From Candidatus Woesearchaeota archaeon (GTDB lineage Archaea > Nanobdellota > Nanobdellia > Pacearchaeales > UBA284), in the NCBI GenBank assembly GCA_964354405.1, contig CAYGZP010000002.1:71671-135670 (forward strand): DNA of 64,000 nucleotides. Direction: 5' to 3'. Both the position numbers and the translations under genes were made by a program. Positions within the stretch are counted from its first letter, which is position 1. Every line of letters starts with the position of its first letter. Under the pieces are notes generated by a model, which did not search any database, was not told the DNA's origin, and worked only from the letters and a program-made list of their open reading frames with translations. Positions 29,961 through 32,585 of the stretch are shown one piece after another.

Positions 29961-30086
29961 ATGGGAAAAGTTCTCGTAAGAGGCGTAGTTAAAAGAAAGA
30001 AAGGTTATCTTTACTATGTTGACGGAAAAGGAAACGTCTGCGAAGCAAAGATGGCACGCGGCGGACGAAAGAAGAAAAAGAGATAA
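29961..30086 (+). CDS. conserved-looking small basic protein (41 aa), not in ORF track
   Basis: ATG preceded by the strong SD AAAGGAGGT; translation MGKVLVRGVVKRKKGYLYYVDGKGNVCEAKMARGGRKKKKR. Confidence 0.4.
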   Translation: MGKVLVRGVVKRKKGYLYYVDGKGNVCEAKMARGGRKKKKR

Positions 30087-30140: not shown

Positions 30141-31073
30141 CTATGTTTGTGTTGTAATGTTAAAGCAGATTTCTTTCATATTATATGCTGTGCTTTTTAT
30201 TTCATTACAAAGACTTGCGTTTCCGTTTTCAATGGCATACCACTGAATGCATAAATCCTTTTGAGTATCAAGATTTTCCATTGTGCATGAGAAATCACAT
30301 GAAATGTTTCTACACTCTGTCCAGTCTTTAGTCGCCTTTGCCTTGCAGAATCCCCTGGCTTTGGGCATACTGCACTTGTCGCATACAGAAATATCCCCTG
30401 TAATAATAACATACTCTTGAATACATCCATCATAATCTGTCACATTGAATAACTTGAACAATAAGTCACAGGCATAGTCACTCCTAGATTCAAGTGCAAT
30501 GTTTGCCACGCATCTGCTAATTTTACCATCACGCGACCATCCGTTTGCATCAACAAGGGGTTCGGACATCAAGGAGCTGCAATTATCAATGATTATTTTC
30601 TCAAGCGCAGCGCGCTGCGCTTCTAAGTCAATTATAGAAAAATTAGTTCTTGCGACTATAATCCCGCTATCGTTTTTAATTGTCAGAAGCTCAATAATGT
30701 ATTCGCCCACTACAAGCCCATGATAATATTTATTTTGTTCTACCCAAGTGGAGGTTTTTGCAACGAATGTTTCATACACCGGCTTTATTACATTCCCTCC
30801 CTCATCAAGGATTCTAAACCCATAGATTGTTCCTTTAACAAGTCCTCGCTGCTGGAGAAAAAACCATAAGTCTATTCCAAGAGAGCTTATCACATTTTTA
30901 TCATTATCCAGAACAACCACTTGGACATCAGGAGAAATATTTTCAGAAATGCTTAAATTTAATCCCGGAGGCGTTTCAGTTTGTTGAAAACACCCACTTC
31001 CGCTCACTAAAACTATCACAATTAACAATATTGCAAATAAAATATAAGATGTTACACCCCATTTTTTATTCAT
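30141..31073 (-). CDS. secreted hypothetical protein (310 aa), Cys-rich
   Basis: N-terminal TM/signal (YILFAILLIVIVLVSGSGC) and many Cys residues in the C-terminal half. Confidence 0.4.
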   Translation of the reverse strand: MNKKWGVTSYILFAILLIVIVLVSGSGCFQQTETPPGLNLSISENISPDVQVVVLDNDKNVISSLGIDLWFFLQQRGLVKGTIYGFRILDEGGNVIKPVYETFVAKTSTWVEQNKYYHGLVVGEYIIELLTIKNDSGIIVARTNFSIIDLEAQRAALEKIIIDNCSSLMSEPLVDANGWSRDGKISRCVANIALESRSDYACDLLFKLFNVTDYDGCIQEYVIITGDISVCDKCSMPKARGFCKAKATKDWTECRNISCDFSCTMENLDTQKDLCIQWYAIENGNASLCNEIKSTAYNMKEICFNITTQT

Positions 31074-31117
31074 ATTAAATATAGAATCTGTTTGTTTATA
31101 GGTTTTTCGGAGGAGTA

Positions 31118-31143
31118 AATTGCAACTAATCGCTGTTGAGTGA
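31118..31143. repeat. 27-bp direct repeat copy A flanking TA cassette
   Basis: attgcaactaatcgc-tgttgagtgag, a 25/27 match to the copy at 31726..31752. Confidence 0.6.
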
Positions 31144-31166
31144 GGTCAAGCGTAGCAAGAAAATTT

Positions 31167-31418
31167 TTAATCTTCGTAAATATTCTTTCTGTGTCCAGCT
31201 TTCACAACTATAAGAGTCTTTGTCGAATTATCTATATCAATAATTAATCTATAATCTCCAACTCTCAACTTAAAACCTCTAATTTCTTCAAGATGCTCGA
31301 GAAAGTGAAATGGGTCTTCTTTACATTGTTGGAGTTTATTCCAAATTCTTTCTTTAAGTTCTTTTTCAAGATTATTAAGAAAGTCTAGGGCTTTCTTTTC
31401 AAAAATAAGATTATACAT
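31167..31418 (-). CDS. relE: RelE/ParE-family toxin
   Basis: 83 aa; C-terminal GDYRLIIDIDNSTKTLIVVKAGHRKNIY matches the RelE/ParE fold signature. Confidence 0.7.
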   Translation of the reverse strand: MYNLIFEKKALDFLNNLEKELKERIWNKLQQCKEDPFHFLEHLEEIRGFKLRVGDYRLIIDIDNSTKTLIVVKAGHRKNIYED

Positions 31419-31424
31419 CTCTTT

Positions 31425-31667
31425 TTACAAGCCAAGAATTTTCTTAGCTTCTTCTTCAGTATAGAACTCGCCTTTTTTAATTCTTTCTCTAGCTTCTTTT
31501 ATTTCAAGAATAGTTTTTTGACTTAATTTTGGTTCTTTTTCGCACATTTTTGCTAAATAAATAAGTTTTCTAACTAGTTCATCATAGCTTTCGCTTTTGT
31601 ATTGTTTGAAAGCATCTAATTCTGTCTTTGTTGTTTGATTAAGTCTTATTGTTGTTTCCATATACAA
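31425..31667 (-). CDS. putative antitoxin (80 aa) of RelE-type pair
   Basis: Small ORF immediately upstream of the toxin, separated by 6 nt; helical and Lys/Glu-rich. Confidence 0.5.
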   Translation of the reverse strand: MYMETTIRLNQTTKTELDAFKQYKSESYDELVRKLIYLAKMCEKEPKLSQKTILEIKEARERIKKGEFYTEEEAKKILGL

Positions 31668-31725
31668 TTGTATACCTATGTATATTTAAATCTTTCGATT
31701 GCTACCTTTTCAGCCCTAATTTTGA

Positions 31726-31752
31726 ATTGCAACTAATCGCCTGTTAAGTGAG
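31726..31752. repeat. 27-bp direct repeat copy B flanking TA cassette
   Basis: attgcaactaatcgcctgttaagtgag, followed by a GC-rich segment (gcgaaagtgcaacgtcccgagcaaccgaggggcgg). Confidence 0.6.
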
Positions 31753-31814
31753 CTGAAGGCGAAAGTGCAACGTCCCGAGCAACCGAGGGGCGGAGAGTAA
31801 ATTTTAGCACGCGT

Positions 31815-32525
31815 CTATTCATTACTCTTATTATCCTTTATTTTTCTATAATACCATACAAACCAAATTCCCCCGATTAAGGTTATCAGAGAAAGAATTA
31901 TGAACATTGGTTCATTGATTGATTGAATCCCATTCCCGATATAAGCTAAACTTAAACTCCCGCTAATATGCCCAATTGCCATCAATGGTAAGAATATTCT
32001 TGGACCCATAGCCGAAAATCCTGCAAAGTATGAAAGCTCATCGTCAGGGAATAATGGCAAGAAATATGCTAAGAACAGCAACAGCTTACCCTTTTCAAAA
32101 TAATGATCATATTTTTTTATGGTTTCTTCTTTTACAACATGCTTTATTATTTTTCTTCCTAAATATCTTCCTAAATAAAATGCTATTGCTGTTCCGATAA
32201 CTCTACCAATCCAATTATAGATAAATCCCCACCATGTTCCAAAAATAAATCCTCCTGCGATAGATACGGCATAATGGCTAAAAGGAGTAATTACGACTTG
32301 TAGGATTTGAAGAACAATAAAAACAAGCGGAGCGAATATTCCAAATTGATTAACAAAATTTCTTATCGTCTCTTGACTTCCAAAAAATGAAGATGGAAAA
32401 ATGTAACCAAGAATCAATAAGGCGATTGGAATAAATATTAATAGATACCATATAAGTTTAGCTTTTTTCATATAATAATAGTTAGGGAGGATTTGTTTAT
32501 TAAACTTTTTCTTTTGGCGCACCAA
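31815..32525 (-). CDS. DedA/TVP38 (SNARE-associated) family membrane protein
   Basis: 236 aa; multi-TM protein with the GxxxG...FLPLFPDDEL pattern of DedA/TVP38. Confidence 0.55.
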   Translation of the reverse strand: MVRQKKKFNKQILPNYYYMKKAKLIWYLLIFIPIALLILGYIFPSSFFGSQETIRNFVNQFGIFAPLVFIVLQILQVVITPFSHYAVSIAGGFIFGTWWGFIYNWIGRVIGTAIAFYLGRYLGRKIIKHVVKEETIKKYDHYFEKGKLLLFLAYFLPLFPDDELSYFAGFSAMGPRIFLPLMAIGHISGSLSLAYIGNGIQSINEPMFIILSLITLIGGIWFVWYYRKIKDNKSNE

Positions 32526-32585
32526 AATTTATTTCACATAATCGCTGTTCTAAAAATATAAAAATCCTGCTTAAGTGAATAATAT

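What the first reader, a model, noticed from the sequence alone, without database searches (positions are those of the whole stretch)
31108..31805. RelE/antitoxin pair bracketed by 27-bp near-identical direct repeats (cassette-like insertion) with a GC-rich tail
attgcaactaatcgc-tgttgagtgag (31118-31143) and attgcaactaatcgcctgttaagtgag (31726-31752) match at 25/27 positions and flank exactly the two-gene TA module (about 580 bp between them). A third partial copy (taatcgctgtt, 32538-32549) lies in the dedA/kae1 intergenic region. Copy A is immediately preceded by ggagtaaatt, and the GC-rich segment after copy B (gcgaaagtgcaacgtcccgagcaaccgaggggcgg) ends in ggagagtaaatttt. The pattern resembles target or att-site duplication around a mobile TA cassette, or a disrupted small RNA gene.
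Basis: seen in the sequence. Interest (0 to 1): 0.55.

Follow-up and report, generated by a model that had tools for sequence, protein, structure and literature searches.

The report
Toxin-antitoxin cassette with duplicated target
A small self-contained toxin-antitoxin gene pair was inserted between two housekeeping genes of a DPANN archaeon and about 45 bp of the target was duplicated on either side, a scar that recurs around this cassette in many other genomes and resembles the way restriction-modification genes are known to move in bacteria.

Summary
AATTGCAACTAATCGC occurs exactly twice in the 64 kb, at 31118 and 31725. The similarity runs to about 46 aligned columns (37 identical): A 31118-31158, B 31725-70. 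The repeats bracket a DUF7557 antitoxin plus RelE/ParE toxin operon on the minus strand.

The organism is a low-GC DPANN archaeon. The neighbours are core genes (S7, S12, EF-2, Kae1, DedA), with no integrase, transposase or tRNA nearby.

The cassette is about 540 bp, from BRE/TATA to the toxin stop. It is 76-85% identical in DNA to copies in many other DPANN genomes, always in different contexts, and homology stops at -40 and at the stop codon.

The window's repeat never travels with the cassette. Yet 10 of 53 non-redundant cassette loci have their own locus-specific flanking direct repeats (15-105 nt), against 0 of 160 neighbouring control genes. In one locus the repeat is the first 16 codons of a GluRS-family gene, which shows true target duplication.

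Best reading: insertion with long, variable target duplication, as described for bacterial restriction-modification units; the enzymology is unknown. It is not an attC, att, tRNA or MITE structure.

The third copy is at chance level. The GC-rich tail has no detectable RNA family. No empty site was found.

The parts
31118..31160 (+). Direct repeat copy A. It lies just downstream of the toxin stop in TA orientation and abuts the end of the conserved cassette. Its hairpin is degenerate (TTGC..CGCT/AGCG..GCAA).
   Evidence: Exact 16-mer plus extended alignment, 37 of 46 columns identical to B. The fold is weak, -6 to -6.8 kcal/mol with z about 0 to -0.6.
31725..31771 (+). Direct repeat copy B. It lies between the dedA stop and the cassette, 20 nt from the cassette's promoter edge. 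Its hairpin is intact (UUGCA-CU..UCGCCU / AGGCGA..AG-UGCAA).
   Evidence: The hairpin is -14 kcal/mol with z = -2.8 on the plus strand and -3.2 on the minus strand.
31162..31704 (-). Conserved mobile unit of about 540 bp: BRE/TATA, palindromic operator, antitoxin, toxin, stop. It is the only part with DNA homology to other genomes.
   Evidence: BLASTN against 90+ loci gives alignments that start at -25 to -47 from the antitoxin ATG and end between -10 and +10 from the toxin stop, at 76-85% identity. GC is 27.8% against 37.7% for the window.
31167..31418 (-). RelE/ParE-superfamily toxin gene (83 aa).
   Evidence: PF05016 at E = 1.3e-8, 35.7 bits against a cut-off of 23. There are 456 homologues, many at 70-90% identity, named RelE/StbE or RelE/ParE by their sources.
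31425..31661 (-). Antitoxin gene (78 aa, DUF7557), with its ATG at 31661. The ORF listing extends the ORF to a TTG at 31667.
   Evidence: PF24434 at 28 bits against a cut-off of 25. The gene is called as 78 aa in public contigs. It is up to 95% identical in amino acids in other loci.
31662..31704 (-). Cassette promoter and operator. The TATA box TTTAAATA lies at 31683-31690 and the palindrome TATACATAGGTATAC overlaps its downstream edge. The mRNA is inferred to be leaderless.
   Evidence: The sequence is conserved across about 50 loci as AAAACATTTAAATATACATATGTATACAATTGTAT(ATG). The roles of promoter and operator are inferred.
31705..31724 (-). A 20-nt stretch between copy B and the conserved unit, neither repeated nor conserved. 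It is presumably donor flank carried in with the insert.
Evidence: It lies outside the BLAST homology and outside the repeat.
31771..31806 (+). GC-rich tail (about 67% GC) between copy B and the dedA stop, ending in CGGAGAGTAAATT (31791-31803). It is read as native dedA 3' flank and is not duplicated.
   Evidence: Composition. No Rfam or tRNA match, no significant fold, and no homologue in 1.2 Mb of related loci.
31108..31121 (+). CGGAGGAGTAAATT, an outer short repeat partner of 31791-31803 (13 of 14 with one indel). It overlaps the left end of copy A and abuts the BRE/TATA of the 310-aa gene.
   Evidence: Seen in the sequence. A pattern search shows such 13-mers are not rare (8 found against 5.5 expected at <= 2 mismatches). 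Significance is marginal.
31815..32471 (-). dedA (VTT-domain) gene, the upstream neighbour whose 3' flank holds copy B.
   Evidence: PF09335 at E = 1.7e-27. Called as 218 aa in public contigs.
30141..31073 (-). 310-aa lineage-specific gene, the downstream neighbour. Its BRE/TATA (CGAAAAACCTATAAAC) lies between copy A and its ATG.
   Evidence: ORF. Orthologues at 46-68% identity are not syntenic. The promoter is inferred from the sequence.

Best explanation
A self-contained type II toxin-antitoxin cassette of about 540 bp was inserted into the spacer between dedA and a 310-aa gene of a DPANN archaeon. The cassette carries its own BRE/TATA and palindromic operator, a DUF7557 antitoxin and a RelE/ParE-family toxin.

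The insertion duplicated about 45 bp of the target, a hairpin-containing stretch downstream of dedA. One copy (B) stayed next to dedA and the other (A) ended up after the toxin gene. The copies have since diverged (37 of 46 identical). B keeps its hairpin and A is decaying.

The cassette carries no recombinase and no terminal repeats. It belongs to a cassette lineage that has entered many DPANN genomes at unrelated sites, often leaving locus-specific direct repeats of 15-105 bp. This is the pattern called 'insertion with long target duplication', known for restriction-modification units in bacteria.

Shown: the repeat, the unit boundaries, the mobility, the recurrence of flanking repeats, and one unambiguous target duplication in a sister locus.

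Inferred: that the window's repeat arose in the same way. Also inferred is how it happens. I favour illegitimate or microhomology-type integration of incoming DNA at a staggered break or stalled fork, with fill-in of the stagger. The addictive TA module would then make the insertion hard to lose.
For: The repeat is real, unique to these two places, and far above chance.

DNA homology to more than 45 other loci is confined to -40..stop(+5), which defines the unit. Copy A abuts its end and copy B lies 20 nt from its start.

The unit sits in unrelated contexts: next to eRF1/ScpB/RpoL, FtsZ, SMC and SSB-like genes, among others. This holds even for the closest toxin relative, at 90% amino-acid and 84% DNA identity. 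The unit's GC is 27.8% against 37.7% for the host.

The window's repeat is not found at any other TA locus, so it is host sequence and not part of the cassette.

Flank-against-flank alignment scores >= 35 in 10 of 53 non-redundant TA loci against 0 of 160 neighbouring control genes (Fisher p = 4.6e-7). At a score of >= 30 the counts are 15 of 53 against 4 of 160.

In L156 the repeat is the ATG plus the first ~16 codons of a GluRS-family gene. The upstream copy is a truncated pseudo-start (MNLKNLSQKTRAYALK-QKL*). The downstream copy is the intact gene, with an N-terminus like those of 24 homologues.

There is no integrase, transposase or tRNA within about +/- 8 kb, and the unit has no terminal inverted repeats.

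Precedent: RM units inserted with 46-bp and longer, variable target duplications and no mobility genes (PMC2853133; PMC3874152).
Against: No empty site was found, meaning a relative with dedA next to the 310-aa gene and a single copy of the 45-mer. Synteny is not conserved in the nearest available genomes, so the duplication in the window itself is inferred by analogy.

The two copies differ by about 20% including indels. That is more than in the published RM cases, so the second copy might have been imported rather than duplicated.

Twenty unexplained bases separate B from the unit.

Only about 20-30% of sister loci show a detectable repeat.

A subset of sister loci is flanked by a dispersed hairpin element. 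There the repeats could arise by recombination between pre-existing copies rather than by duplication.

Only 64 kb of this genome could be searched for further copies.
Confidence: 0.68

Rival explanations
1. Recombination into a pre-existing repeat. On this view the 45-mer is a member of a lineage-specific family of hairpin repeats. A circular or linear TA fragment that already carried one copy integrated by homologous or site-specific recombination into the copy downstream of dedA. Copy A would then be partly donor-derived, and the exact 16-bp core would mark the crossover.
For: The copies are only about 80% identical but share a perfect 16-bp core at one end. In 14 sister loci the TA is flanked by a conserved, dispersed hairpin element (GTTAATCCTTAGGATTAAG) that also follows unrelated genes. 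tRNA-Arg(GCG) lies next to the TA in three of those loci. A paired one-base indel (CGCT/AGCG in A, CGCCT/AGGCG in B) keeps the hairpin pairing in both copies.
Against: There are no other copies of the 45-mer in the 64 kb, nor in 1.2 Mb of related DPANN loci including about 95 TA loci. No recombinase gene is nearby. In loci such as L156 the repeats are unique host sequence, even coding sequence, which this model cannot explain. The dispersed element of the other genomes is absent from the window.
Confidence: 0.17
2. Functional cis-elements unrelated to insertion. On this view the two copies (and perhaps 32531-32549) are binding sites for a regulator, or 3'-end hairpins or terminators, or a small RNA. 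They would be placed 45-110 nt upstream of three consecutive minus-strand genes and kept similar by selection.
For: All three sites lie at a similar distance upstream of minus-strand start codons: 45-87 nt, 64-110 nt and about 60-105 nt. Copy B folds into a hairpin better than shuffles (z about -3). The region is GC-rich for this genome.
Against: The third site is at chance level. There is no Rfam or tRNA match. Copy A does not fold better than shuffles. The model does not explain why unrelated, locus-specific repeats flank the same cassette in other genomes but do not flank control genes. The highly conserved antitoxin already has a conserved operator inside the unit.
Confidence: 0.08
3. An integron-like gene cassette bounded by attC-type sites, or an integrase-mediated att duplication left by a degraded integrated element.
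For: Both copies contain a GTTRRRY-like heptamer (GTTGAGT and GTTAAGT) and an imperfect palindrome. TA cassettes are common in bacterial chromosomal integrons (my own knowledge).
Against: No integrase lies within about 8 kb and the context is core genome. The hairpin is about 45 nt, with no RYYYAAC partner placed to pair with the GTT heptamer. The site does not accompany the cassette in any of about 95 other loci. There is no tRNA target.
Confidence: 0.04

Closest known systems
Insertion with long target duplication of restriction-modification gene units (Nobusato et al. 2000, Gene 259:99; Furuta, Abe and Kobayashi 2010, PMC2853133)
   Same: A small selfish addiction-type gene unit sits in a core-genome spacer. 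It is flanked by direct repeats longer than 30 bp that are unique host sequence. The repeat length varies between events. The insert holds no integrase or transposase and has no terminal inverted repeats. The published 46-bp duplications in Haemophilus are the same size as here.
   Different: The cargo is a type II TA pair, whose toxin is related to mRNA interferases and is not a DNA-cutting enzyme. The authors' suggestion that DNA double-strand breakage is the shared property therefore cannot apply. The host is a DPANN archaeon, and no archaeal case passed their screen. The repeats here are more diverged (about 80%). No empty-site genome is available for the window.
IS1634/IS1549 group of the IS4 family, transposons that make long, variable target duplications
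   Same: They produce long target duplications of variable length (my recollection of IS1634/IS1549; PMC2266710 was listed but not read).
   Different: Those are insertion sequences with a transposase gene and terminal inverted repeats. The TA unit has neither, and no transposase is nearby. Mobilisation in trans is not excluded, but there are no ends for a transposase to recognise.
Integron gene cassettes with attC sites, including TA cassettes of chromosomal integrons
   Same: A promoter-proximal small gene unit is bracketed by similar imperfect-palindrome repeats, and the cargo is a TA module.
   Different: There is no IntI and no attC geometry or length. The repeat is host-specific and does not travel with the cassette. 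This cassette carries its own promoter.
Chromosomal type II RelBE/ParDE-like TA modules
   Same: The gene order is antitoxin then toxin with a short gap. The toxin has a RelE/ParE-fold Pfam match. A palindromic operator lies over the promoter. The distribution is patchy and consistent with horizontal transfer.
   Different: The antitoxin belongs to DUF7557, which is uncharacterised. Toxin activity and autoregulation were not tested.

Membership tests
Insertion with long target duplication (RM-type mobility, Kobayashi group) | The insert is flanked by direct repeats longer than 30 bp. | tested here: met
   A 31118-31158 against B 31725-31770, 46 columns with 37 identical, z = 5.4 against shuffles.
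Insertion with long target duplication (RM-type mobility, Kobayashi group) | The repeat corresponds to one copy of the sequence at the empty site in a related genome. | tested here: inconclusive
   No empty-site relative was found for the window. In sister locus L156 the duplication is shown internally, by a duplicated gene start with a truncated upstream copy.
Insertion with long target duplication (RM-type mobility, Kobayashi group) | No other mobile-element gene lies in or next to the insert, and the repeat is unique in the genome. | tested here: met
   Only the two TA genes lie between the repeats. The neighbours are S7, S12, EF-2, Kae1, DedA and L7Ae. The 16-mer occurs only twice in 64 kb. 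Only 64 kb of the genome was available.
Insertion with long target duplication (RM-type mobility, Kobayashi group) | The repeat length varies between independent insertions of the same kind of unit. | tested here: met
   Locus-specific repeats of 15-105 nt occur at 15 of 53 sister loci, and at 27 nt in L185.
Integron cassette / attC | An attC site: an imperfect palindrome of about 55-140 bp with RYYYAAC ... GTTRRRY cores that pair with each other. | tested here: not met
   A GTTRRRY-like heptamer is present, but no RYYYAAC partner is positioned to pair with it. The hairpin is about 45 nt.
Integron cassette / attC | An integron integrase and an array are nearby, and the site moves with its cassette. 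| tested here: not met
   No integrase lies within about 8 kb. The site is absent from about 95 homologous TA loci.
Integrase-mediated att duplication (often in a tRNA gene) | A core is shared by the element and the target, a recombinase gene is present, and the target is usually a tRNA 3' end. | tested here: not met
   No tRNA is found in the window and there is no tRNA model hit at E <= 10. There is no recombinase. The repeat is not carried by the cassette elsewhere.
IS / MITE transposon | Terminal inverted repeats and a short target duplication of fixed length. | tested here: not met
   No inverted repeat joins the unit ends (31162-31175 against 31690-31704). The duplications are long and variable.
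Type II RelE/ParE toxin-antitoxin system | A toxin of the RelE/ParE fold and an adjacent small antitoxin gene in one operon. | tested here: met
   PF05016 at 35.7 bits (cut-off 23) and PF24434 at 28 bits (cut-off 25). The genes are 6 nt apart on the same strand. The pair is conserved together in 81 of 93 loci.
Type II RelE/ParE toxin-antitoxin system | Toxicity is neutralised by the antitoxin, and the operator is autoregulated. | not testable with these tools
   A conserved palindrome over the TATA box is seen. Function needs experiments.
Known small RNA or tRNA gene disrupted by the insertion | A match to a curated RNA family or to a tRNA model. | tested here: not met
   ARAGORN finds 0 genes. 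Rfam finds nothing at gathering threshold and only three unrelated hits elsewhere in the searched stretch, none at A, B or the GC-rich tail, at E <= 10.

The most novel reading that the evidence does not exclude
DPANN archaea harbour a lineage of minimal TA cassettes of about 540 bp, running from promoter to stop codon. These spread between and within genomes without any recombinase or terminal repeats, and leave long, variable target duplications (15-105 bp).

The toxin is an mRNA-interferase relative and not a DNA cutter. So 'insertion with long target duplication' would not depend on the cargo's nuclease, as was proposed for RM systems. It would instead reflect a general, uncharacterised host pathway of DNA insertion that addiction modules make visible. 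It would be the first archaeal case and the first TA case of this mobility mode.
Probability: 0.45. Interest if true: 0.65.

Novelty: new variant of a known kind. Interest (0 to 1): 0.5.

Why it matters
How toxin-antitoxin modules move when they are not riding on plasmids, phages or transposons is poorly understood. Here a single cassette lineage gives dozens of independent insertion scars.

If the scars are target duplications, they point to an insertion route that needs no dedicated recombinase. That extends a phenomenon known only for bacterial restriction-modification genes to TA systems and to archaea.

It also argues against the idea that the cargo's own DNA cleavage drives that route.

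For DPANN genomes, which are small, rearranged and rich in horizontally acquired genes, it offers a concrete mechanism-level marker for recent gene gain. For annotation, it explains an otherwise puzzling repeat pair and a GC-rich spacer without invoking a new RNA gene.

Tried and rejected
tRNA or tmRNA gene or fragment: ARAGORN found none in the window.

Known RNA family: Rfam found nothing at gathering threshold and only three unrelated hits elsewhere in the stretch, none at the repeats, at E <= 10.

Structured RNA across 31690-31830: the fold is not better than shuffles on either strand (z = -0.16 and -0.63). Only the 45-50-nt hairpin of copy B stands out.

Common intergenic motif: there are no further copies in 64 kb by pattern search or short-word BLAST.

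Third copy at 32531-32549: rejected as chance.

Repeat carried by the cassette: it was searched for in about 180 loci with up to 6 mismatches and by BLAST, and is absent. It is also absent from viral contigs.

Viral carriers of the toxin: none in IMG/VR.

Empty site: Kae1-based loci gave a closest relative at 84% identity, which has a transposase next to kae1. Orthologues of the 310-aa gene are not syntenic. GluRS-based attempts for sister locus L156 also failed, because relatives are not syntenic or still carry the TA.

Terminal inverted repeats of the unit: none.

Homology between the window's repeat and the dispersed hairpin element of other DPANN genomes: none (and manual comparison).

NCBIfam and PDB sequence searches for the two proteins were uninformative.

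Sigma-70 promoter and terminator scan: not applicable to archaea, and it showed nothing at the repeats.
Full report
**1. Observation**

The exact 16-mer AATTGCAACTAATCGC starts at 31118 and at 31725. After a one-base indel the match continues through TGTTRAGTGAG, giving 25 of 27 as stated. The repeat finder reports the pair as D1 and D7.

A pattern search with up to 3 mismatches finds no further copy in the 64 kb, only one unrelated 3-mismatch hit at 285. Short-word BLAST of both flanks finds nothing else.

A gap-tolerant local alignment extends the repeat to A 31118-31158 and B 31725-31770, with 46 columns, 37 identical and 5 gap columns. The flank-against-flank score is 52, against 25.7 +/- 4.9 (maximum 51) in 2000 shuffles, z = 5.4.

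Copy B together with its 3' extension forms a hairpin: UUGCA-CU..UCGCCU / AGGCGA..AG-UGCAA, -14 kcal/mol, z = -2.8 and -3.2 on the two strands. Copy A keeps only remnants, TTGC..CGCT / AGCG..GCAA, with z about 0.

By a rough count it is only marginally non-random, and similar 13-mers are not rare.

The 'third copy' at 32539-32549 is an 11-mer whose best local score (23) is exceeded by unrelated places in the window (30). I treat it as chance.

Five public contigs from four sequencing runs carry the identical arrangement, so it is not an assembly artefact.

**2. What lies between and around the repeats**

Two minus-strand genes lie between the repeats.
- A 78-aa DUF7557 protein at 31425-31661 (PF24434, 28 bits, cut-off 25).
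- An 83-aa RelE/ParE-superfamily toxin at 31167-31418 (PF05016, E = 1.3e-8).

The neighbours are housekeeping genes. DedA and Kae1 lie on one side. A lineage-specific 310-aa gene, S12, S7 and EF-2 lie on the other. L7Ae and type IV pilus genes lie further out.

There is no integrase, transposase or tRNA, and no Rfam match even at E <= 10.

The organism is a low-GC (37.7%) DPANN archaeon. Its Kae1 is 84% identical to that of a Pacearchaeota MAG, and the next best matches are Woesearchaeota.

**3. The TA pair is a mobile unit with sharp boundaries**

The toxin has 456 homologues at E <= 1e-5, many at 70-90% identity, almost all in DPANN metagenome contigs. The antitoxin is up to 95% identical.

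The contexts differ from locus to locus.
- Between ScpB/glycosyltransferase and RpoL.
- After FtsZ.
- Against SMC.
- After an SSB-like gene.

The last case is the closest toxin relative, at 90% amino-acid and 84% DNA identity.

BLASTN of the window's TA +/- 400 nt against more than 90 loci gives alignments that begin 25-47 nt upstream of the antitoxin ATG. They end between -10 and +10 nt from the toxin stop, at 76-85% identity.

The conserved unit is therefore about 540 bp, roughly 31162-31704 in the window. It holds BRE/TATA (TTTAAATA at 31683-31690), a palindrome over and after the TATA box (TATACATAGGTATAC), the two genes and the stop. The promoter block is visibly conserved in about 50 loci.

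The unit has 27.8% GC against 37.7% for the window. It has no terminal inverted repeats.

Copy A abuts the unit's end. Copy B lies 20 nt beyond its start.

**4. The repeat is host sequence, not part of the cassette**

The 16-mer (<= 2 mismatches) and the 26- and 27-mers (<= 6 mismatches) occur in none of the other ~175 loci fetched, including about 95 TA loci. BLAST of both flanks against 1.23 Mb of these loci finds nothing. The pattern is also absent from viral contigs.

This rules out an att or attC-type site that travels with the cassette.

**5. Flanking direct repeats recur around this cassette**

For 53 non-redundant TA loci I aligned the 160 nt upstream of the unit with the 160 nt downstream of the stop.
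- Against a cross-locus null (99th percentile 28, maximum 39), 15 loci score >= 30 and 10 score >= 35. The window scores 45 under these stricter parameters.
- As a control, the same measurement on 160 neighbouring genes in the same loci gives 4 at >= 30 and none at >= 35. Fisher p is 2.8e-7 and 4.6e-7 respectively.

The repeats are 15-105 nt long and 80-100% identical. They differ in sequence from locus to locus, and sit 2-90 nt from the unit's left edge and 3-54 nt from the stop. The closest relative, L185, has its own 27-nt repeat (23 of 27).

**6. One sister locus proves target duplication**

In L156 the TA unit lies between a deaminase gene and a GluRS-family gene.

The downstream repeat copy starts 2 nt after the toxin stop. 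It is the ATG and first ~16 codons of the GluRS gene (MKNLKQKTRAYALKNAVAYKG...). This N-terminus matches those of 24 homologues.

The upstream copy overlaps the deaminase stop (ATGA). It encodes a truncated duplicate, MNLKNLSQKTRAYALK followed by QKL and a stop, running straight into the cassette promoter.

A piece of a neighbouring coding sequence cannot be a site brought in by the cassette or a generic intergenic element. It was duplicated when the cassette went in.

**7. Interpretation of the window**

By the same logic, the ancestral spacer was dedA stop, GC-rich stretch, 45-nt hairpin, TACTCCTCCG, BRE/TATA and the 310-aa gene, about 135 nt in all. The cassette, plus about 20 nt of foreign flank on one side and about 7 nt on the other, was inserted with duplication of the hairpin segment.

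Copy B, still behind dedA, has kept its hairpin. Copy A, now behind the toxin gene, has lost most of it. This fits selection on only one copy.

The GC-rich tail is simply the undisturbed dedA 3' flank. It has no detectable RNA family, no significant fold and no homologue elsewhere.

The divergence between the copies (about 20%) and of the unit from its nearest relatives (about 15%) indicates an old event.

**8. Mechanism**

The literature search found the matching precedent. [quoted passage not shown] They are flanked by repeats significantly more often than average genes. No archaeal case passed that screen (PMC2853133). A later review repeats this for RM systems but gives no TA example (PMC3874152). 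A search for the phrase together with 'toxin-antitoxin' returned only RM-centred papers.

Those authors suggested that DNA breakage, common to all RM types, underlies the process. A RelE/ParE-type toxin offers no such activity.

I therefore infer that the duplication reflects a host process, such as integration of incoming DNA at a staggered break or a template switch at a stalled fork, followed by fill-in. On this view, addiction modules are over-represented among such insertions because they resist loss. This step is inference and nothing here tests it.

**9. Rivals**

a) Recombination into a pre-existing repeat family.
- In favour: the perfect 16-bp core within otherwise diverged copies.
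- In favour: 14 sister loci where the TA is flanked by a dispersed hairpin element (GTTAATCCTTAGGATTAAG, often with a tRNA-Arg-like 3' end). That element also follows unrelated genes.
- Against: that element is absent from the window.
- Against: the window's 45-mer has no other copy in the data available.

b) Functional cis-elements or a small RNA. Copy B's hairpin and the similar spacing upstream of three genes are suggestive. But the third site is chance, copy A does not fold, and this model does not explain the cross-genome pattern.

c) Integron attC or integrase att. The defining features were tested and are not met.

**10. Verdict**

The 'mobile TA cassette with target duplication' reading is supported, and the att-site, small-RNA and third-copy readings are not.

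It is a new variant of a known kind: long-target-duplication insertion, here of a TA unit in archaea. Interest is moderate for the window itself and higher for the cross-genome pattern it exposes.

The main gap is the lack of an empty-site genome for this locus.

Noticed in passing
L111, L116, L117, L119, L125-L128, L131-L133, L138, L140, L145 (e.g. L128:1782, 2781, 3597(-), 4161; L132:1647, 2474, 3291; L127:303, 335, 1052): A conserved element of about 60 nt, (A)TCGTGAGGAAAAnGTTGGGGA-GTTAATCCTTAGGATTAAG-TAATCGTGGGGGC, follows the toxin stop in many other DPANN TA loci. It also follows unrelated genes and is sometimes in tandem. In several loci the upstream copy stops at the hairpin apex, as if the TA had been inserted into the element. 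Its nature is unknown: a dispersed hairpin repeat, or remnants derived from a tRNA 3' end. It is absent from the window.
   Followed up: partly
L128:1711-1782 (+), L113:2805-2876 (-), L125:122-195 (+): A tRNA-Arg(GCG) gene lies directly next to the TA cassette in three independent loci. The dispersed element above ends in a sequence like this tRNA's 3' end (..TCGTGGGGGCG). This hints at integrase-type targeting in that sub-lineage.
   Followed up: partly
window 31108-31121 and 31791-31803: An outer direct repeat, CGGAG(G)AGTAAATT (13 of 14), encloses copy A, the TA, copy B and the GC-rich tail. It could mark an older nested insertion of a ~67-nt GC-rich hairpin segment, or it could be chance.
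   Followed up: partly
L006:342-1001: In the closest available relative (Pacearchaeota MAG, Kae1 84% identical) a DDE-type transposase-like ORF sits directly upstream of kae1, where the window has dedA. This locus is therefore rearranged in relatives.
   Followed up: no
L126:401-602: A weak match to the Rfam RT-16 RNA (39.8 bits, gathering score 50, E = 0.009) lies about 1.8 kb upstream of a TA cassette.
   Followed up: no
L086:1-44 (gene runs off the locus): An eRF1 gene interrupted by an intein with a LAGLIDADG endonuclease domain, according to the precomputed Pfam hits, in a 648-kb Pacearchaeota contig.
   Followed up: no
L138:2-265 and 408-912; L115:228-331 and 891-1001: L138 carries two TA modules in tandem, each followed by the hairpin element. 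In L115 the flanking repeat is 92-111 nt and includes the first bases of the cassette promoter (..CATTTAAATA), followed by two small ORFs of unknown family.
   Followed up: partly
window 29961-30086: A 41-aa lysine- and arginine-rich ORF (MGKVLVRGVVKRKKGYLYYVDGKGNVCEAKMARGGRKKKKR) is called as a gene in the public contigs. It lies between the 'phage metallopeptidase'-like gene and the 310-aa gene and has no Pfam family.
   Followed up: no
window 31662-31704 and the same position in about 50 loci: The cassette promoter is strikingly conserved: AAAACATTTAAATATACATATGTATACAATTGTAT(ATG). A GTATAC-type palindrome lies between the TATA box and the start codon. It is probably the antitoxin operator of a leaderless operon.
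   Followed up: partly
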